Assembly: GCA_964016885.1 (NCBI GenBank)
Contig: OZ024743.1
Coordinates: 343,294,001 to 343,358,000 of the forward strand
DNA from: Eledone cirrhosa
Taxonomy: Eukaryota
Reading direction: 5' to 3'
DNA length: 64,000 nucleotides
Below, piece after piece: positions 20,448-62,940 of this stretch. Made by a program: the position numbers and the translations under genes. Every line of letters starts with the position of its first letter. Position 1 is the stretch's first letter. The notes under the pieces are model-generated. The model ran no database searches. It was given only the letters and a program-made list of their open reading frames with translations, and was not told the origin of the DNA.

Positions 20448-20906
20448 TGTCTTGCTCAAGGAAACAACACATCACCCGGTCTGAGAATTGAACTCACAAC
20501 CTTGCAATCGAAAGGTTGTGAGTTCAATTCTCAGACTGGGTGATGTGTTGTTTCCTTGAGCAACACACTTTATTTCACATTGCTCCAGTTTACTCAGCTG
20601 CAGAAATGAGATGATAGGACTGGGGTCCCTATCCTTCCACTGCATAGTGGTCGTGGAGGTGCCACAGCAAAAAAGCACCCAGCCCACACTGTAAAGTGGA
20701 CGTGTAGGCGCCACGGAAAAAAAGGTACCTAGCACTCACTATAAAAGAGGTTGGTGTTAGGAAGAGCATCCAGCTGTAGAAATCAAGCCAGAGTCAGTTC
20801 CCGTATGAGCAAGACAAGGTTAGCCGACCGGACACTGCCCAAAACAGGACAACCCGTCTAACCCATGCTAGCGTGGAAGAACGGACGTAAAACGGTGGTG
20901 ATGATG
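20448..20906 (+). mobile_element. SINE family A with fold-back 5' end
   Basis: 20448-20503 is the inverse of 20512-20567; the remainder is a normal body and RTE tail. Confidence 0.85.
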
Positions 20907-39181: not shown

Positions 39182-40790
39182 TTACCTCCAAGTGTTAATC
39201 CATTTTTTCGTGTTCAGTAGTGGCTTAAATTTTTCAATGAAGAATTCTTCATTATATCTGCGGAAATGTTCGTTATCCGACCATATCTTGAAGAAAGGGA
39301 AGATTGTGAATTTTCCCTTCCCGCATGATGCAAAGTGTGCGCTACATGTGGTATTTCTGACTGTGGGGTCTTTAATTTGTTGTTTATGTACCCGGACTCT
39401 ATCATGTAATCCCGTTCCGGTTTCCCCAATGTAATACTCTTTACACTGTGGACATGTTGCGCAATATATTAGGTTTTTCGTTTTGCAGTTCATGTTTGCA
39501 TTGACCTTAAAATTATCATGGTTTTTGAAGGACAACTGTTTGCCCTCTTCGACGAGTTCACAGGTTCCACATCTAGGGTCCCCGCATTTCGTCACTTGCA
39601 TTGATTCCATGTTGGTCGTAAATTTTGCCTTGGTAATTAGTTTTTTACGGTTGGGTGCTTGGCGTCTGCTATAAATTATCTGTGTGTTTTTTAAGAGTGC
39701 ATTCATTTTGGTAGATTGCTGTAGAATCGGGAGATACTGCTTAGCAGTTTTCACAATGTTGATGTTCCCTGGGTTGTGAGTGATGACAAAAGAGATAGCA
39801 GGGTTTTCTTTTTTATGTTGTGGGTTTGGTTTTTTCAGTGTTGTTATTGGGATGTTCTTAGCCTTGGAGATGGCTGCGTTGATGGCTGACCGGAAATTTA
39901 AGTATTGGTGTGTGTCAGTGGGTTTGCAAAATAGGTCCGTTATGATATTTTCCCCTTCTTTAATGATGAGGATATCTAGAAAGGGAAGTTCCTTTTCGTT
40001 ACATTCCATACTGAATTGTATAGCTTCATGAAGCTTGTTTAAGATCGAATAAAATTTTTGTAGGTCTGTTTGGCTTCTGTTCCAGAAGATGAAGCAGTCA
40101 TCTAGGTAATGTTTCCAGTTTTTATTAATGTAGAAGGCAAAGTCGTGACTGAATGTTATCTGTAGTTGGGAATATAATTTTGCCTCTAAGTGACCCATAA
40201 CGAGCGTTGCATATGTAGGGGCCACTTTGGTACCCATGGCTGTTCCTTTTATTTGTAGATAAAGTTCGTTGTCAAAGAGGAAGTGGTTGTTTTCCAATAC
40301 TAATTTAAGTCCTTCCAAGATGAATTCTTTGGGGAATCTTTCTGAAATGTGACTTGAGTGTTTTGTAATCCAGAAGACCACAGCTTCAATCCCTAGGTCG
40401 TGTGGGATGTTAGTGTACAGGCTTATTACATCAAAACTGACTAGGATTGTATCCTGGTGTACTTTTTGGGGGATATAGTTAAGGAATTCCATATCATCTC
40501 TGGTGTAGCTTGGAACTTTTTTACATAGGGGTTTGAGTATGATGTCTAATAGGTTGCTTAGACGTTGTGTGCTTGAGGCTGGGCCAACAATAATGGGGCG
40601 TAATTTTAAGTCTGTCGGTTTTGGTGCTTCGATGTATGATGTATTTTTCCCTTTTATGTTGTTTTGGATTTCTATGGATTTGTGAATTTTTGGTAATCCA
40701 TAGAAATTGCTGGTTTTCATTTCGAAGTTGGTTAGGTAATCTACTTCTTTTGGTGTTAGGTTGTTTTGGTACTTTGTTGTTAGTTTGCCT
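39182..40790 (-). CDS. PLE reverse transcriptase + GIY-YIG endonuclease (open frame, N-truncated)
   Basis: [49 protein letters not shown], Cys-rich linker, [20 protein letters not shown]. The first ~98 aa of the listed ORF are microsatellite. Confidence 0.93.
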
Positions 40791-40924
40791 ATATATATAT
40801 ATACACACATATATACATATATATACATATATATATATACACACATACATACATATACACATACATACATATACACGTACATATACACATACATATACAT
40901 ATATATATACACACACATACATAT

Positions 40925-48633: not shown

Positions 48634-50058
48634 TCACCTTGATCACCTTGACCGACCAGTCTGTCGGGCGTCCATTCAGCGTCGCTGGTCACAGCATGGC
48701 GTCCATTCCTCTCTGGATTGTGCTTTCCTCATCCATGCATTCCCAATCGTATTCTTAAAATCGTAACTCCACCCTCGTGGAGGCCTTCCGAGTGGTGGTT
48801 TCCACTCGTGCGGGTACCACTGGGTAACTGCACGGGTGCACCGATTATCGGTGAACCGAGCGATGTGTCCAGCCCATCTGAACTTGCTGCGCATATATTC
48901 CGTGATGACGTCCCTCACGCCGGACTTCTGTCTGATTACTTCGCTCCTGGTGTGCTCTCTCAACGAGATTCCTAGCATTGATATGGAGGCACATGGCTTA
49001 GATATTAGAGCATTAGTGGTTAGAGCATTGGCCTTGCAATCAAAAGGTTGTGAGTTCAATTCTCAGACCAGGTGATCTGTTGTTTCCTTGAGCAAGGCAC
49101 TTTATTTCACATTGCTCCAGCTTACTCAGCTGTAGAAATGAGATAATAGGGACTGGGGACCCTATCATTCCACTGCAAAGTGGTCGTGGAGGTGCCACGG
49201 CAAAAGCGCGCCCAGCACTCACTGTAAATGAGGTTGGTGTTAGGAAGGGCATCCAGCTGTAGAAATCAAGCCAGCATCAGTTCCCGTCCCACCCTTGCAA
49301 GCAGGAAAAAGTGGACGTAAAAATGAAATGATGAAATGAAATGATCTTTCCATGGCTCTTTGAGCCGTTACCAGCCTATGCTCTTCTCTCTTCCTTGTAG
49401 CCCAAGTTTCACTGCCATATAACATTGGAGGTAAAACTGCTATTGAAGAGGTTGGTGCGGGTGGTCTTGTCCAACCTCCCCTTGAGCACATCCCTTATGC
49501 CGTTGAACGCCTTCTATCCGGCCATTACTCTCCGCGAGATCTCGCGCTCAATGTCTCAGCGCATGTTCACTTCTCGTCACAGTTAGATGTATTCCTCCAT
49601 CTCCTCTATTTCATAACCGCCAACCACCATTCGACCTGTTGGTACGTTGTCGGACGGCATGAACTTCGTTTTCATGCGCGCGAAAGAGTACAAAATGCCT
49701 CTCTGCGTCGCGTTCGTAGACTAGGAGAAGGCCTCGAGCACAGAAGGCGTAGAAATCAACGCAGTGCTGAACTCGCAGCAGAAGCAAGGAGTCGAGGCGA
49801 GTGTCGGATGCACCACCGACATAGCTCTGCTGTCATCACCCGCAAGGAGATACGATCTCTCCAAAACATTTCACCGCGTCTCGACCAGATCATCAGAGTC
49901 ATTGACTGGCAAGGCGCTGTCAACATCAATGGCGAGATACTTACCCACCTCCGTTTCGCTGATGACATCTTACTCGTCGCTGAAACCACGGTTCAGCTTC
50001 AGAACATGCTGACGGAGCTCGACATCAAAAGCTCTGTAGAAGCCCTCAAGATGAACTG
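48633..50058 (-). mobile_element. GC-rich RTE-1-like LINE (third family) with inverted 5' segment
   Basis: Minus: [35 protein letters not shown], tail (caaggtgat)2. Plus 49680-50058: [30 protein letters not shown]. Confidence 0.88.
48984..49345 (+). mobile_element. SINE family A inserted in the GC-rich RTE
   Basis: Splits MERS|ML; tgat present at both ends; short duplication in the A-box region. Confidence 0.88.
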
Positions 50059-50363
50059 CATATATATACAGATATATATATATATATACATATATATATA
50101 CATATATACACATATACACATATACACATACACACACATATATATATATATACACATACACACATACATATATATAAATATACACATATATATATATATA
50201 TATACACACATACACATATATATATACACATACATACATACACACACATATATATACATACACACACATATATACATACACACACATATATATACATACA
50301 CACACATATATATACATACACACACATATATATATACATACACACACATATATATATATACAC

Positions 50364-50394
<31 letters not shown>

Positions 50395-51103
50395 TATATA
50401 TATATACACATATATATATATATATATATACACATATATATATATATATATACACACACATATATATATATATATACACATATATATATATATATACACA
50501 CACATATATATATATATATACACATACACACATATATATATATACACATATATCTATACACATACACATATACATATATATAAATATACACATATATATA
50601 CACACATATATATATATACACACATATATATATATATACACACATATATATATATGCACACATATATATATATACACACACATATATATATACACACATA
50701 TATATATACACACACATATATATATACACACACATATATATATACACACACACATATATATACACATATATATATATACACACACACATATACACACACA
50801 CATATACACACACACATATATATATATACACACACATATATATACACACACACATATACACACACACATATATATATATACATACACATATATACATATA
50901 CACATATACACACACACATATATATATATACATACACATATATACATATACACATATACACACACACATATATATATATATACACATATATACATATATA
51001 TATATATATACACATATATACATATATATATATACACATATATACATATATATATATATATACACATATATATATATATATATACACATATATATATATA
51101 TAT

Positions 51104-51484
51104 GGTGGCTGCCAACTCGTTTTCGAGTACGGCCACTACTTTATATCCATGTAGGAGAACCCCTACCGATGCGCTGAACGAATGTGACTTTTTAGTCCAG
51201 CCAGCGACTTGAAAACTCTGGTACAAAGACTACACTTGTGACCATTATTGACACATAGTGCAGGGCCCATGGTACCATGTGATGACAAGTGCAGAGAGAT
51301 CTCCAGATATAAAGCAATGCCTGTGCTGTGAAGCTTTTATAGTGAGCAAAGGCACTGCACAAAGCCAGTCCCACTCTCTTAACCAAGATGATATTTACCA
51401 AAAAGAAGAACAAGTCAACATCATTGGATACCATCAGGGTTGCAGGTGTTATATCAGAGTTTTCCTTCTCCTAGAATTCTGCCT
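51104..51484 (-). mobile_element. Bipartite non-autonomous RTE-type element, copy 3
   Basis: Same 3' end, most 5'-truncated copy. Confidence 0.8.
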
Positions 51485-51664
51485 ATATATGTGTATATAT
51501 ATATATATACACATATATACATATATATATATATATACACATATATACATATATATATATATACACATATATATATATATATATATACACATATATACAT
51601 ATATATATATATACACATATATACATATATATATATATACACATATATACATATATATATATAT

Positions 51665-51756
<92 letters not shown>

Positions 51757-51760
<4 letters not shown>

Positions 51761-54411
51761 CCCAAATATCCGACAGTGACTATATAATTATCGCAGGCGA
51801 CCTAAATGGTCACGTTGGACAACATTGTGACGGCTACGACGAAATCCATGGAGGCTATGGGTTTGGTACTAGAAATGAGGAAGGCTCCAGAATCCTGGAA
51901 TTCTGTGATGCAAATAACCTAACTATCTGTAACACTAACTTCAAAAAACGTGACAATCACCTGATCACCTATAGATCCGGGGAACACACAAGCCAGGTAG
52001 ATTATATCCTTACCAGAAGACGTGACAGAGTGTCTGTTGTAAACACTAAATCCCTCCCCCATGAAGAATGCACCTCCCAACATAGACTGATAATTAGCGA
52101 CCTCATAGTCAGGACGAGACGTACTCGACAACAGAAGAGGACTATCCTCAGGAGGAAAATATGGAAGCTAAAGGACCCCACAGCCAGGAATAAATTTCAA
52201 AGCATATTACTTGATGCTTTCGACAGTAAGGAAGAACATTTAGAGTCGGACAATATAGAGGGACAGTGGGAATTTCTGAAAGCAAACCTGCTGTTGGCGA
52301 CAGACGAAGTCTGTGGCTGGAGCAGGCCTGTAGGCAGGAGGAGAGTAACATGGTGGTGGAACAGTAAGGTGGAGGGGTCAATTAAGGCCAAAAAGCAGGC
52401 TTGGAAAGTATGGCGGGATGGGGGAAGTAGAGAGGACTATCAAGTGGCCAGGAGGGAAGCTAGGAGACAAGTGTACTTAGCAAGAAGGGAAGCTGAGGAA
52501 AGAAAGTTCAAGCATGTTCTACAACGCGATGACCAAAAACGTGAGGTGTTCAGGATTGCTAGGCAATGCGTCAAGGAAAACCGTGATATTGTCGGGGAGA
52601 AGTGTGTACTAAACGACGATGGCACACTTGCCATCACCGACGCTGATAAGAAGGTAGCTTGGAAGTGTCACTATGAAAGGCTACTAAATGAGGAGAATAA
52701 TTGGGAGAAAGGCAGTCTCCCCCATATCGACCCAATAGAGGGACCAGCAGTGTTAGTCGAGGGGAGTATAATAAGTAAGGCAATCAAGGATATGAAGACG
52801 GGTAAGGCGGCTGGGCCTTCGGAAATAGTTGCTGAGATGCTGAAATCATCTGGCACGGTGGGACACACCATGGTCACCCGCATAGTTAACCAAGTCGTAC
52901 AGAATGGGGTTGTTCCGAAGGACTGGCATAGCAGCATCATCGTTAACTGTTATAAGGGTAAAGGAGACGCCCTAGATAGGAGTAACTATAGAGGCATTAA
53001 ATTAATCGACCAGGTCATGAAGGTCACGGAAAAAGTAATAGCACAACTAATCAGAGAGAGAATTGACCTAGATGAAATGCAGTTCGGGTTTGTGTCAGGC
53101 AAAAGTACCACAGACGCTCTTTTCATAGTACGACAACTACAGGAGAAGTACCTAGCTAAAGGTAAACCCCTCTACTTAGCTTTTGTCGACTTGGAGAAAG
53201 CCTTCGACAGAGTCCCCCGCTCCATTATCTGGTGGGCTCTTAGAAAACTAGGCGTTGACGAATGGCTTGTGAGGGCTATACAAGCCATGTATAAAGAAAC
53301 AGTCAGCAAGGTTAGAATTAACAACGAATATAGTGAAGAGTTTAGCGTAAAAGTTGGCGTCCATCAGGGCTCTGTTCTCAGCCCACTACTATTTATTATT
53401 GCCCTTCAGGCTATAACAGAGGAGTTCAAGACAGGCTGCCCATGGGAACTCCTATACGCAGACGACCTGACACTCATAGCGGAATCAATGGCCGAGCTAG
53501 AGAAGAAATTCCAAACATGGAAGCACGGCCTAGAGTCAAAAGGACTTAAAATTAACCTGGCTAAGACCAAAGTACTAGTTTGTAGGAAAGAAAACAAGGC
53601 GGCGGTCCCTTCTGGGAAATGGTCGTGCTCGGTGTGTAGGAAAGGCGTAGGTAGAAACTCCATTTTATGTCCTAAATGCAAAGTATGGGTGCATAAAAGA
53701 TGTAGTGGGATCACAGGTAAGCTAACTAAGAACATAGATTTTACATGTGGCCGGTGCTCTGGTGCAATAAGTAGCAGCAAGTGCCCACAAACTACTAGCT
53801 CTTTCAATTGCGCAGAGGGTTCTATAGAAATAGTGGACAGCTTCCGTTACCTGGGCGATAAAATCAGCAGTGGGGGAGGGTGCTCTGAAAGTACTGTAGC
53901 TAGAGTCAGAACTGGTTGGAAAAAGTTCAGAGAGCTTATACCACTATTAGCTGCTAAAGGGTTCTCACTAAAAATGAAAGGCAGGTTGTACGATGCCTGC
54001 ATACGAACAGCAATGCTGCATGGCAGTGAGACCTGGGCATTGTGTGCAGAGGATATACGCAGACTAGAGAGGAACGAAGCTTGCATGCTCCGCTGGATGT
54101 GTAACAGTAATATACGTGAACGGCAAAGCATAAACGAACTAAGGAAAAAATTAGAGATAAGAGGGATCAGGTGTTGTTTACTCGAGAGAAGGCTACGTTG
54201 GTATGGACACGTGATGCGCATGAAAGTCGATAGCTGTATAACAAAGTGCAGGGCAATAAAGATAGACGGTAGTCACGGAATAGGCAGACCTAGAAAAACC
54301 TGGGACGAGCTGATAAACTCCGACATCACACACTTACACCTCTCCAAGACAATGTCACTGGACCGAGACCTTTGGCGGTACTCAGTAACAGAGAAGACCC
54401 GCCTTACCTAA
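51757..54411 (+). CDS. RTE LINE ORF: partial APE endonuclease + reverse transcriptase with internal PHD finger
   Basis: Frame is open upstream of 52030 ([31 protein letters not shown]), then [51 protein letters not shown]. No stop; no start (5'-truncated). Confidence 0.96.
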
Positions 54412-54800: not shown

Positions 54801-56589
<1,789 letters not shown>

Positions 56590-57702
56590 AAGTTAAATAA
56601 AAGTCAAATGATTAAAATTGTTCAGTTCTGAGAGCATTCCTCAGTCAGAAGTCTATAGAATTCTTTCTGGGGTGAGGCTCCCTGTAGTGTTTATGCCTGC
56701 TATTGTTCAGTACATTTGACCTCCACCATTATATTGGTACTGTTGTTGTTGTAGTGGTCAGCTTATATCTTGCTGCTGCTAACAATTTAGAAGTATTCAG
56801 TTTGTGTTTTCTCTTCATCCCACCTGCCACCATCGTAGTGGTGGTGGTGGTGGGGTGGGGGGGGGGGGTATTTCATGTATATGAAGAAATATAAGGCAAT
56901 AAATGAAGAAAACAGAAGATAAATAAATAATATAATAAAATAAAATAATTAATATAATTTGTGTAATTTGAAAATAAATAAATAAATAGAGAATAAAGAA
57001 TAAAGAGTAAATGAGAGATTGGTGAAAAAGTAATGATAATGTATATGGAGAAGTGAGAAATAATGTAGGATAAAGTGTGTGTGTGTGTGTGCTATAACCA
57101 ATCTCAAGGTCAGAATATGTTGGATAGATTGGTATGATACAAGATGTTAAGATGAGATATTCAATGTGTTTGTGTTATAATCTATCTCAACTTAAAATAA
57201 ATATAAGGTTATACAGTGAAGAGGGCAGAAAACAAATAAATTAATATAGAGAAATCAAGATTTAAGATTGGAACTTTAAAGTCAGAAATCTGGTAAATTA
57301 AAAGTGTTTGTGTTATAGATGTTGGCCAGATTATTATGGCTGTGTCCGATTCTGTCTCTGGGAGCCCCACCCCAGAAAGAATTCTTATAGACTTCTGACT
57401 GATGAATGCTCTCAGAACTGAACAATGGGAAGTTTGACACATTTTTTGATATTTTGTTCCTTCAACACCTTGTCCCTTCTACCATTTTATCAATTTTTAA
57501 GCTAACTCCAACAATGACAACACTAATAACTGACCAATGAGAGGAGAAGGGGACCTGTGACACGAAAATTCGTTTGTTTGAATTCATATGACTCCAGTTC
57601 CCCAGTGAATTAACAACCCAGCAAGGAACTGGGGATATCAGAGTATTGACAATATCATACACCTAAACAACATATGTACTTGTCTATACCACACTAATTC
57701 AA

Positions 57703-57757
57703 ACTGCCTGAAGAGGTCACAGCCAAAGATGGCTGTCACTGAAATATATATAGCAGT
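57703..57757 (+). ncRNA. Minimal type I hammerhead ribozyme
   Basis: actgc-CTGAAGA-ggt c acagcca/tggctgt c act-GAAA-tatata-TA-gcagt, then AATAAA. Perfect stem I and complete core. Confidence 0.9.
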
Positions 57758-58221
57758 AATAAACGAAGCTAAATTTTAATCATTTGACTTTTATTTAACT
57801 TTATTTACACTACTCCGGAGTAACCAAACCAACCTGCGCACTTCGTCGAGTGCTCCAGCCTGCATACTGAGGTGTTGGTATACAACCAACATAAACTCAA
57901 AATCTATATATATATATATACATATATTATATACATATATATACATATATATACATATATATATATATACATATACATATATATATATATACATATATAT
58001 ACATATATATATATACATATACAATATACACATATATACATATACACATATATACATATATATACATATATATACATATACATACATATATACATATACA
58101 TATATACATATATATACATATATACATATATATACATATATACATATATATACATATACATATATATACATATATATACATATATATACATATATATACA
58201 TATATATATATACATATATAC

Positions 58222-58252
<31 letters not shown>

Positions 58253-58361
58253 CATATATATATATACATATATATATATACATATATACATACATATATA
58301 TATACATATACACATATACATATACACATATACATATATACATATACATATATATATATAC

Positions 58362-58402
<41 letters not shown>

Positions 58403-58617
58403 TTCGTTTCTGATTTGTTTAGCAAGATTCTTTATCTATAAATCGTGTGTTGAAACCGATATTGTTATACTTTGGGAGGGTCATGTTGCCAATAAGAAAC
58501 ACACGCACCAGTTGCATTCACTTCAATTTAATATATTAAATATTTATAAATTTACAAATTTATAAATTTCTGGTTGGTTGGTTGGTTCCACAACCAGATA
58601 GTTGTTTATATATATAT

Positions 58618-58662
58618 AGTCATAGTTCTTTCGTCACACACTCTGTGACCTCTTCAGTGACT
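58618..58662 (-). ncRNA. Hammerhead ribozyme in the left palindrome arm
   Basis: Exact reverse complement of 58754-58798. Confidence 0.82.
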
Positions 58663-58753
58663 GGGGATTTCTTTCTTCGTTTCTGTGCCTTTCCTTTCTT
58701 CTATCCTACGCCATTTTGTTTGGAAAGGCACAGAAACGAAGAAAGAAATCCCC

Positions 58754-58798
58754 AGTCACTGAAGAGGTCACAGAGTGTGTGACGAAAGAACTATGACT
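58754..58798 (+). ncRNA. Hammerhead ribozyme in the right palindrome arm
   Basis: agtca-CTGAAGA-g-gtcaca gagtg tgtgac-GAAA-gaac-TA-tgact. Confidence 0.82.
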
Positions 58799-58953
58799 AT
58801 ATATATATAAACAACTATCTGGTTGTGGAACCAACCAACCAACCAGAAATTTATAAATTTGTAAATTTATAAATATTTTAATAAATTAAATGAAGTGAAA
58901 GCAACTGGTGCATGTGTTTCTTATTGGCAACATGACCCTCCCAAAGTATAACA

Positions 58954-58995
<42 letters not shown>

Positions 58996-59044
58996 TATAC
59001 ATACATATACATATATATACATATATATACATATATATATATAC

Positions 59045-59075
<31 letters not shown>

Positions 59076-59249
59076 CATATATATATACATATATATATAC
59101 ATATATACATATATATACATATATATATATATATATACATACATATATAATATATATATATATATACATACATATATATACATATATAGTATACATACAT
59201 ACATACATACATATATATATACATACATACATACATACATACATATAGT

Positions 59250-59359
<110 letters not shown>

Positions 59360-59465
59360 CATATATATATACATATATATATATACATATATATATACAT
59401 ATATATATACATATATATATATACATATATATATACATATATATATAAATATAATATATACATAC

Positions 59466-59496
<31 letters not shown>

Positions 59497-59519
59497 CATA
59501 TATACATATTATATACATA

Positions 59520-59572
<53 letters not shown>

Positions 59573-59848
59573 ACATATATATATATATACATATACATAT
59601 ACATATATATACATATAACATATACATATATATACATATATATACATATATATACATATATATATATAATATATACATATACATATACATATATATACAT
59701 ATACATATATATATATACATATACATATACATATATATACATATACATATACATTATATATACATATATATATATATTACATATATATACATATATATAT
59801 ATATAATATACATATACATATATATATATATATATATACATATACATA

Positions 59849-59880
<32 letters not shown>

Positions 59881-59978
59881 ACATATATATACATATATAT
59901 ACATATACATATATATACATATATATACATATATATATATATACATATATATACATATATATACATATATATATATAC

Positions 59979-60065
<87 letters not shown>

Positions 60066-60086
60066 CATATATATACATATATATAT

Positions 60087-60140
<54 letters not shown>

Positions 60141-60317
60141 AAATATATATATATACATATATATACATATATATATATATACATATATATATACATAATA
60201 CATATATTATATACATATATATATACATATACATATACATATATATACATATATATATACATATACATATACATATAGTATACATATATATATATACATA
60301 TATACTATATATAATAT

Positions 60318-60363
<46 letters not shown>

Positions 60364-60380
60364 CATATATATATATACAC

Positions 60381-60429
<49 letters not shown>

Positions 60430-60454
60430 CATATACATATATACATATATATAT

Positions 60455-60557
<103 letters not shown>

Positions 60558-60560
60558 CAC

Positions 60561-60609
<49 letters not shown>

Positions 60610-60681
60610 CATATACATATATACATATATATATACATATATATATATATATACATATACAATATATATATATACATATAC

Positions 60682-60729
<48 letters not shown>

Positions 60730-60807
60730 ATATATACATATATATACATATATATACATATATATACATATATATATACATATATATATATATACATATA
60801 TATATAC

Positions 60808-60874
<67 letters not shown>

Positions 60875-60881
60875 TATATAC

Positions 60882-60940
<59 letters not shown>

Positions 60941-60997
60941 CATAATATATATACATATATATATACATATATATATACATATATATATACATATATA

Positions 60998-61056
<59 letters not shown>

Positions 61057-61561
61057 CATATATATATACATATATATACATATATATACATATATATATA
61101 TATATACATATATATATACATATATATACATATATATATATATATACATATATATATACATATATATATATATATACACATATATATATATACACATATA
61201 TATATATACCCATATATATATATATACACATATATATATATACATAAACACACATATATATATATACCCATATATATATATACCCATATATATATATACA
61301 CATATATATATATACATAAACACACATATATATATATACACATATATATATATATACACATATATATATATACACATATATATATATATACATATATATA
61401 TATACACATATATATATATATACATATATATATATACATATATATATATAAACACATACATATATATATACACATACATATATATATACACATACATATA
61501 TATATACACATACATATATATATACACATACATATATATATACACATACATATATATATAC

Positions 61562-61596
<35 letters not shown>

Positions 61597-61599
61597 TAT

Positions 61600-62897
61600 A
61601 ACTTTGAAATGTTTTGGCCAGTATTGGCCCAGGCCATGTCTAACTTAATATCACCACCTGGCGAAGTCTTTCAATTCAGGATTTGGGCACCATGGCCCAT
61701 TCGAGAAGAGAATTACTGTTTGCGGAGACATATCCGGGTGTGGGTGGTTTGTCCGGGATTACTTGGAGGAATTTGTCCAAAGACTTCTTGAATTTTGTGT
61801 GGTCAGTTTCTGTTTTGACGTGTCCTGGTGTGATGTTGAAGAGAGCAGGGCCGATTGAGGTGAAATAATTGTGCCGTATTGTTGTTATGAGTTGCGATTT
61901 AGATTTTTGTATGGGACGGATAGCACGGGGCCCAAGCCTTGGGTGTATCTTGAAGGCGATGCCAACATCATTTGGGCAGTGATGATGGAACATTTTCCAC
62001 ATCATGCAGATAAAATAACGCTCACGGCGACGTTGGAGTGAGTAAAGTTTCAGGTTTTCTAGTCGACCCCAGTAGTCAAGGTCTGACATGCCATCTATCT
62101 TTTTCGTGATTGCCCTTTGAGGAGCTTCAAGTTTCATGATACTTTGTTTCGTGTGGGGAGACCACAGTGGACAACAGTATTCAAGGTGTGGTCGGGCAAA
62201 AGTAGAGAAGAGAAGGATAATGGTGTGGGAATCTCTCGACTGGAAGGTTCTGAGGATCCAGGAACACATTCTGCGGGCCATGTCAACTTTGCTGCTTATA
62301 AGCGTGGCCCAGCTTATGTTGCTGTCCCCGGTTACTCCCAAGTCTCTGATGTTGTTAGATGCCACGAGAGTTTCCCCGGAGGGAAGGGAGTACGGGAGTT
62401 TCAGAGCATCCTCTTTTCCAAAGTGGATCAGTTAGAATTTGTCTTCGTTCAGTAACATGTTGTTCTTTTCCAGCCATTGGGTAACAGCCAGTAGGTCTGA
62501 CTGAAGGCTTATCTGGTCATCCACGCCATTGATGACCTTTTGGAGCTTGGAATCATCAGCGAAAATTTTAATGTTGCTGTGTTTGATGATGTCAGTGATG
62601 TCATTAATATAGATGATGAAGAGAAGTGGGCCCAACACAGTGCCTTGTGGGACCCCACTACTGACTTTGACTGGGCTGGATTTGACTCCTTCAACTACAA
62701 CATGTTGGGTTCTGTTTGACAGGAAGCTCTTGATCCACTGCAGCAGCTTTCCAGTGACACCAATATTGGACAGCTTTCTCAGTAGAATGTTATGATCAAC
62801 CCTGTCAAAGGCCTTGCTGAAATCAAGGTAGATAACATCAGTGTTGGAACCCTCTCCCAAGGCTCTCAAAATGTCATCAAAGTGATGCAGTAGCTGA
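61600..62897 (-). mobile_element. 5'-truncated CR1-clade LINE (RT with one in-frame stop)
   Basis: DVIYLDFSKAFDRVDH, SGVPQGTVLGPLLF, FADDSKL, RDLGV, RPHLEYCCPLWSP. ORFs 62432-62932 and 61676-62365 are in the same frame. Confidence 0.92.
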
Positions 62898-62940
62898 AAT
62901 ACATACATATATATACATATATACATATACATACATATAT

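What the first reader, a model, noticed from the sequence alone, without database searches (positions are those of the whole stretch)
58403..58957. Palindromic mini-element with an intact hammerhead ribozyme on each strand
Seen: a ~550-bp non-coding island between TA arrays is a hairpin with 236-bp arms and a 27-nt spacer. Each arm holds a full minimal type I hammerhead (58754-58798 +, 58618-58662 -), and only the left arm continues into an extra ~55-nt terminal tail. Established: Penelope-like elements carry minimal hammerheads in their pseudo-LTRs and form inverted tail-less copies. Inference: this is a non-autonomous, ORF-free fold-back ribozyme retroelement. A read-through transcript from either strand would contain one ribozyme preceded by its exact antisense, so it would be self-sequestering and would form long dsRNA (a possible ADAR or RNAi substrate).
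Basis: partly seen in the sequence, partly recalled or inferred. Interest (0 to 1): 0.88.

Follow-up and report, generated by a model that had tools for sequence, protein, structure and literature searches.

The report
Truncated inverted Penelope-like retrotransposon insertion
The hairpin is real but ordinary: it is the short end of a retrotransposon family with thousands of copies, inserted once with and once without its 56-base tail, and the copies as a group suggest that both halves were likely copied from one RNA.

Summary
The palindrome is real (236-nt arms, 27-nt spacer, a minimal type I hammerhead motif on each strand), but it is not a separate element. The left 319 nt, spacer and tail included, are the 3' end of an autonomous Penelope-like family (RT + C-terminal GIY-YIG; 8,349 exact hammerhead-core matches genome-wide). 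The right arm is an inverted tail-less copy of the same end. The exact junction occurs at only 2 places, and several hundred similar hairpins are estimated, with varied junctions in the sampled ones: by-products, not an amplified mini-element. This architecture, and opposite-strand hammerhead pairs 100-700 bp apart, are in print. What the family adds: 113 of 118 sampled 3' ends fall at two AATAT sites joined to (TA)n; 32 of 32 inverted pairs with two terminal ends are one tailed plus one tail-less; the two arms of a locus share variants; and 5' ends pile up where the left arm ends, the likely transcription start. Best model: both sides of a cut (TA)n tract prime on one RNA and the two cDNAs join head to head. 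Ribozyme cleavage and transcription of this copy are unshown.

The parts
58403..58721 (-). Tailed arm: last 319 nt of the PLE (pseudo-LTR end plus tail); its 5' end lies at the family's main 5'-end hot spot
   Evidence: unit 1-319, 92-100% in 40 scored copies
58403..58458 (-). 56-nt tail = sequence between the two 3'-end sites; coding sequence of the parent ORF start
58459..58694 (-). Left arm of the palindrome (part shared with the right arm)
58695..58721 (-). 'Spacer' = extra 27 nt of the left copy; holds a YY1-like motif at 58709-58718 (motif name recalled)
58722..58957 (+). Inverted tail-less copy, 5'-truncated 27 nt short of the left copy, ending at the proximal AATAT site
58754..58798 (+). 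Minimal type I hammerhead motif, predicted cut 3' of 58793; stem III loop AA variant
   Evidence: features as in PMC4209133
58618..58662 (-). Identical hammerhead motif on the minus strand, predicted cut between 58623 and 58622
58401..58484 (-). Inferred ATG (58484-58482) and first ~27 codons of the parent ORF; ATG copy on + at 58932-58934
57906..58402 (.). Left (TA)n-type target array
58958..61600 (.). Right (TA)n-type target array

Best explanation
This is a short insertion of an endonuclease-bearing Penelope-like element, made of one tailed and one inverted tail-less copy of the element's end, likely produced when both sides of a cut (TA)n tract primed reverse transcription on one RNA. Shown: the parent family with RT and C-terminal GIY-YIG motifs; two fixed 3'-end sites 56 nt apart, both at AATAT|CG and joined to (TA)n; one of each per inverted insertion; arms of a locus more alike than arms of different loci; a 5'-end hot spot at -304 to -326. 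Inferred: (1) the RNA starts in the pseudo-LTR near -320; (2) the enzyme cuts both strands of (TA)n; (3) each 3'-OH anneals to the AUAU at one of the two sites; (4) the tailed cDNA ran off the RNA's 5' end (319 nt) and the tail-less one stopped 27 nt earlier; (5) the two were joined head to head by end joining with little or no microhomology. The copy lacks the upstream NRF1-like and ETS-like motifs and is probably inert; both hammerheads are passengers, and in any read-through RNA they are predicted to be locked in the hairpin.
For: Identity as a PLE end (about 0.95 on its own). Two 3'-end sites: 113 of 118 ends, 56 tailed and 57 tail-less. Pairing: of 43 head-to-head junctions in the position-ordered sample, 32 are tailed + tail-less, 0 tail-less + tail-less, 2 tailed + tailed where one 'end' reads on into the ORF, 9 have one arm without a terminal end in view; a second, similarity-picked set gave 24, 0, 3 (all read-through) and 9 of 36. 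Chance of 32 of 32 under free choice is 2^-32. Same template: median 2 differences within a locus against 7 between loci over 31 pairs; stem III letter concordant in 28 of 29 readable pairs. 5' hot spot: 20 of 120 arms end in 304-326 against 8 in 335-470; genome-wide 506 at -317..-319, 31 at -290..-292, at most 57 near -351. Junctions: 32 of 56 overlap by 1-13 nt, 10 blunt, 14 with 1-26 extra nt. In vitro, a Poseidon PLE cuts and extends both strands from two internal sites that define the tail (PMC11167929).
Against: No biochemical or RNA evidence here. Arm similarity could come from later conversion between arms or from two RNAs of one source; one pair (L015) has arms of two subfamilies. 31 of 35 apparently single arms show no partner remnant, so two-ended priming is not visible in every insertion. 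The transcription start is inferred from truncation counts and recalled motif names; an RT pause would look alike. The in vitro Poseidon element primed without homology to the target, unlike the AUAU match proposed here. Arkhipova et al. 2013 proposed self-priming on an antisense template for such inversions. The upstream control pattern was mis-specified and is only an upper bound.
Confidence: 0.62

Rival explanations
1. Same PLE by-product, but the inverted arm arises otherwise: from a second RNA bound by an RT dimer, or by fold-back self-priming or template switching on the first cDNA or an antisense RNA.
For: Self-priming on an antisense template proposed for A. vaga Penelopes (PMC3846280 passages); PAc predicted to be a dimer; L015 has arms of two subfamilies; near-perfect palindromic junctions occur.
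Against: Either arm may be the longer one (17 against 15 in the ordered sample) and arm lengths differ by up to kilobases, which simple fold-back does not predict; fold-back does not explain why the second arm stops at the other AATAT site; two free RNAs do not by themselves give 32 of 32 mixed ends.
Confidence: 0.3
2. An independently mobile, non-autonomous palindromic ribozyme element.
For: Several hundred short hairpins are estimated (12 divergent pairs within 250 nt among the first 100 of 4,433 hits; 4 among the first 100 of 8,349); one other locus has the same junction.
Against: Junction at 2 places only, with other flanks and a tail-less long arm at the second; sampled short hairpins have different junctions; lengths form a continuum up to full-length elements; upstream promoter-like motifs are absent from this copy.
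Confidence: 0.04
3. Assembly fold-back artefact.
For: No listed public contig spans the whole stretch; flanks are long TA arrays.
Against: Arms differ at 5 places; the right arm ends exactly at the family's second 3'-end site; contigs of public runs show many other left-to-right joints and TA loose ends at 58459.
Confidence: 0.03

Closest known systems
EN+ Penelope-like elements with a CX2-5CxxC linker (Neptune or Nematis clades; Craig et al. 2021, PMC8557442)
   Same: RT + C-terminal GIY-YIG, Cys linker, heavy 5' truncation, adjacent inverted 5'-truncated copy, tail at one end only, microsatellite targeting, hammerhead in the pseudo-LTR
   Different: Tail is 56 nt rather than 30-40; clade not resolved by a tree; no Pfam hit for the family's own protein
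Dual opposite-strand min-HHRs of Schistosoma Cercyon PLEs (Cervera and de la Pena 2014, PMC4209133)
   Same: [quoted passage not shown]
   Different: Other host and family; stem III loop here is AA or GA, the AA form a poor palindrome
Poseidon PAc of Anolis (Frangieh et al. 2024, PMC11167929)
   Same: Two internal RT start sites inside the ORF start define the tail; AT-rich target; hammerhead dispensable for insertion
   Different: PAc primes without target homology; here both sites carry AATAT matching (TA)n; PAc's hammerhead overlaps the start codon, here it lies about 140 nt upstream
LINE-1 twin priming (mechanism recalled; only search listings seen)
   Same: Two target ends priming on one RNA, giving a head-to-head inversion
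   Different: In L1 the second site is variable and upstream, so the arms hardly overlap; here it is fixed 56 nt from the first, so the end is duplicated
Animal non-LTR retrozymes (bioRxiv 10.64898/2026.07.22.740005, first fifth read)
   Same: Non-coding, type I hammerhead, pseudo-LTR related
   Different: Retrozymes are head-to-tail tandem units; this is a head-to-head pair with a non-recurring junction

Membership tests
EN+ Penelope-like element (parent family) | Single ORF with RT followed by GIY-YIG endonuclease | tested here: met
   1,135-aa open frame in L075 with YVDD and VYSI...YIGE motifs; own protein 0 Pfam families, but 5 of 39 aligned relatives hit RVT_1 and 3 of 39 GIY-YIG; profile hits an RT structure at E 1.8e-5
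EN+ Penelope-like element (parent family) | Pseudo-LTRs from partial tandems, overlapping the ORF start | tested here: met
   L072: inverted tail-less copy, pseudo-LTR, ORF starting inside it, pseudo-LTR with tail; tandems in L124, L165
EN+ Penelope-like element (parent family) | Adjacent inverted 5'-truncated copy; tail at one end | tested here: met
EN+ Penelope-like element (parent family) | RT groups with PLE RTs in a phylogeny | not tested
   No named reference PLE proteins were held
Neptune/Nematis clades | CX2-5CxxC linker before the endonuclease | tested here: met
   C-X4-C-X2-C in P0002; which of the two clades not resolved
PLE minimal type I hammerhead | Conserved core, extra nucleotide 9/10.1, G10.1-C11.1, short stem III | tested here: met
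   criteria from PMC4209133; no Rfam hammerhead hit
PLE minimal type I hammerhead | Palindromic loop 3 allowing an active dimer | tested here: inconclusive
   Helix III homodimer +2.4 kcal/mol for this copy's AA loop, -1.7 for the GA subfamily
PLE minimal type I hammerhead | Self-cleavage | not testable with these tools
   Indirect only: at most 19 5' ends at the cut window against 15 next to it
Non-LTR retrozyme | Head-to-tail tandem units each with a hammerhead | tested here: not met
   Head-to-head pair
Independent non-autonomous fold-back element | Same internal junction and ends in many copies | tested here: not met
   2 places genome-wide with up to 1 mismatch

The most novel reading that the evidence does not exclude
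PLE inverted repeats are made by programmed two-ended priming: one RNA carries two fixed AUAU sites, each takes one end of a double-strand cut in (TA)n, so every inverted insertion gets one tailed and one tail-less arm, and priming next to the RNA's 5' end mass-produces ~600-bp ribozyme palindromes. This family would be a thousands-strong genomic record of that mechanism.
Probability: 0.45. Interest if true: 0.62.

Novelty: new member of a known kind. Interest (0 to 1): 0.3.

Why it matters
As a single locus, little: it is one of an estimated several hundred such hairpins and the pattern is in print. As a family it bears on an open question, how Penelope-like elements form their inverted and tailed structures (named as unresolved in PMC8557442). 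The strict one-tailed, one-tail-less rule, the AUAU match to the target and the 5'-end pile-up give three predictions that the existing in vitro PLE assay could test. The census also argues that hammerhead-cut RNA is not a main template. If some hairpins sit in transcribed regions they would be long dsRNA, but that is untested.

Tried and rejected
Rfam: no hammerhead among 29 matches on the island or among the 150 listed of 388 on the window. Pfam on the two family proteins: 0 families. Hammerhead-cut templates: a few sampled arms began at the cut site, but genome-wide 46 matches at -218..-220 included 26 of a stem III variant and at least 1 insertion variant, leaving at most 19 against 15 at -221..-223: no clear peak. 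A small cluster of 5' ends at -251..-254 (6 arms) was not followed up. Lower arm divergence near the junction, suggested by this copy, was not general. Sequencing runs: no RNA holder listed, which says nothing on expression; public contigs did not span the locus. A direct genome-wide count of close hammerhead pairs was not obtained; the figure is extrapolated from the first 100 listed places. Earlier-findings look-ups returned nothing. Dimer energies failed and were redone for helix III only. Literature: searches found no paper stating the one-of-each rule or two-ended priming for PLEs; subscription papers (such as Arkhipova 2006, Evgen'ev and Arkhipova 2005) and supplements were not seen and may contain it.

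Full report
Observation. The island lies between TA arrays. Arms 58459-58694 and 58722-58957 are 236 nt with 27 nt between and differ by 3 substitutions and 2 indels. Rfam did not report a hammerhead. [quoted passage not shown]

What it is. A search of the own genome (3.0 Gb) with 58403-58721 gave 881 candidates, 40 scored, matching the whole query, spacer included, at 92-100%. A 36-nt hammerhead core has 8,349 exact matches, control 0. Upstream of this end, copies continue into a 3' UTR, a GIY-YIG endonuclease, a C-X4-C-X2-C linker and an RT with YVDD. L072 shows the whole plan: inverted tail-less copy, pseudo-LTR, ORF beginning inside it, pseudo-LTR with tail; L075 has an open frame of 1,135 aa through the endonuclease. 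The tail is ORF-start sequence. The best of 84 protein relatives is an Octopus vulgaris RT-domain protein at 69%, so the host is likely a cephalopod (inference). The family's proteins hit no Pfam family; 5 of 39 aligned members hit RVT_1 and 3 GIY-YIG, and the profile hits an RT structure. The linker points to Neptune or Nematis (PMC8557442 passages); no tree was made.

Is the hairpin its own element? No. The 27-nt junction occurs at 2 places with up to one mismatch; the other has different flanks and a tail-less long arm. I fetched the loci of the first 100 core matches on contig 1 as a position-ordered sample. Arm lengths run from tens of bases to the full 4.1 kb. Short hairpins are common: 4 divergent pairs within 200 nt among those 100 matches, and 12 within 250 nt among the first 100 of 4,433 matches of this copy's subfamily, which extrapolates to several hundred; sampled ones have different junctions.

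Rules seen in the family. (a) 113 of 118 3' ends lie at two sites, 56 tailed and 57 tail-less; both sites read AATAT then CG in the element and nearly all join (TA)n. Two of the tailed 'ends' are internal. (b) Of 43 head-to-head junctions, 32 pair a tailed with a tail-less end, none pairs two tail-less ends, 2 tailed pairs have one side reading on into the ORF, and 9 lack a second terminal end in view; a similarity-picked set of 36 gave 24, 0, 3 and 9. (c) Over 31 pairs, arms of one locus differ by a median of 2 events against 7 between loci; the stem III letter agrees in 28 of 29 readable pairs; L015 is mixed. (d) 20 of 120 arms have their 5' end 304-326 nt from the tail end, against 8 in 335-470. 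Genome-wide, 3-nt windows followed by three non-matching letters gave 506 at -317..-319, where this copy's left arm ends, and 31 at -290..-292, where its right arm starts; an upstream control, whose pattern I mis-specified so that it also counts point variants, gave 57 as an upper bound. The hot spot sits at a YY1-like motif just downstream of NRF1-like and ETS-like motifs (names recalled); in human promoters YY1 sites lie at or just after the start and NRF1 sites before it (PMC11269187 passages), and Drosophila Penelope starts inside its pseudo-LTR (PMC2377424 passages). (e) Junctions show 1-13 nt overlap in 32 of 56, none in 10, and extra bases in 14. (f) 31 of 35 apparently single arms show no partner remnant; 4 tail-less arms carry a short tailed remnant.

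Mechanism. Most likely the element's protein cuts both strands of (TA)n, the two 3' ends anneal to the two AUAU sites of one RNA, both are extended, and the cDNAs are joined head to head. Here the template began about 319 nt before the distal site, either the 5' end of a full mRNA or a short transcript from a 3' pseudo-LTR. Both-strand cutting and two internal start sites are shown in vitro for an Anolis PLE, which however primed without homology (PMC11167929, first two of four parts read). Steps of priming, single template and joining are inferred. The main rival is a second RNA or self-priming on an antisense template (PMC3846280 passages).

The ribozymes. A + strand read-through folds into one hairpin with stem I pairing probability 0.000 at all four lengths tried; a single arm forms stem II (0.96 or more) and stem I weakly (0.12-0.15). 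The 2-nt loop of stem III cannot close in a monomer, and this copy's AA loop makes a weak dimer helix (+2.4 against -1.7 kcal/mol for the GA form). 5' ends show no clear excess at the cut site (at most 19 against 15). Activity is untested; published minimal PLE hammerheads were inactive alone and weak as dimers.

Artefact check. The arms are not identical and the right arm stops at the family's second site; contigs of four public runs show many other inverted joints of this family but none listed spans the locus. No RNA holder was listed.

Prior art and verdict. Cervera and de la Pena 2014 report dual minimal hammerheads about 100-700 bp apart on opposite strands, ascribed to truncated PLEs; Craig et al. 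2021 draw the inverted copy with the tail at one end. The locus is thus a new instance of a known kind. I found no statement of the one-of-each rule or of two-ended priming in searches, but subscription papers and supplements were not seen. Interest 0.3, carried by the family-level test of PLE inversion rather than by this copy.

Noticed in passing
window 56576-57905: A second, unrelated PLE-like family (2,576 candidates, 99% identity) with its own hammerhead motif at about 57703-57756 (+). Same plan: tailed arm on +, inverted tail-less arm with an internal deletion on -, 99-nt tail; the inverted arms seen in 6 of 11 other loci end at the same tail-less point. Its ORF was not sought.
   Followed up: partly
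window 39200-40800 (-): Decayed RT + Cys linker + GIY-YIG element of a different PLE family, 27% to the studied protein.
   Followed up: partly
window 956, 9156, 11016 (+): Three related CTGAnGA...GAAA motifs with short stems, possibly further minimal hammerheads of another repeat family.
   Followed up: no
L015:1240-1820: Inverted pair whose two arms belong to different subfamilies: a two-template insertion or a conversion.
   Followed up: partly
L185-L214: A third stem III variant with a T after GAAA occurs in at least 26 copies, and AA and GA loops are both abundant, so stem III seems loosely constrained.
   Followed up: partly
L072 ORF (P0001 about 250-430): Long Asn/Thr/His-rich low-complexity stretch in the N-terminal part of the ORF, recalling the N-rich inserts of rotifer Penelopes.
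   Followed up: no
L084, L095, L116, L130, L138, L139: Six arms have 5' ends at -251..-254, right at the hammerhead core, perhaps an RT stop at the ribozyme structure.
   Followed up: no
window 20451-20565: A 115-nt near-perfect hairpin outside TA arrays.
   Followed up: no
window 61600-62900 and 48700-54400: LINE-like RT remnants by eye.
   Followed up: no
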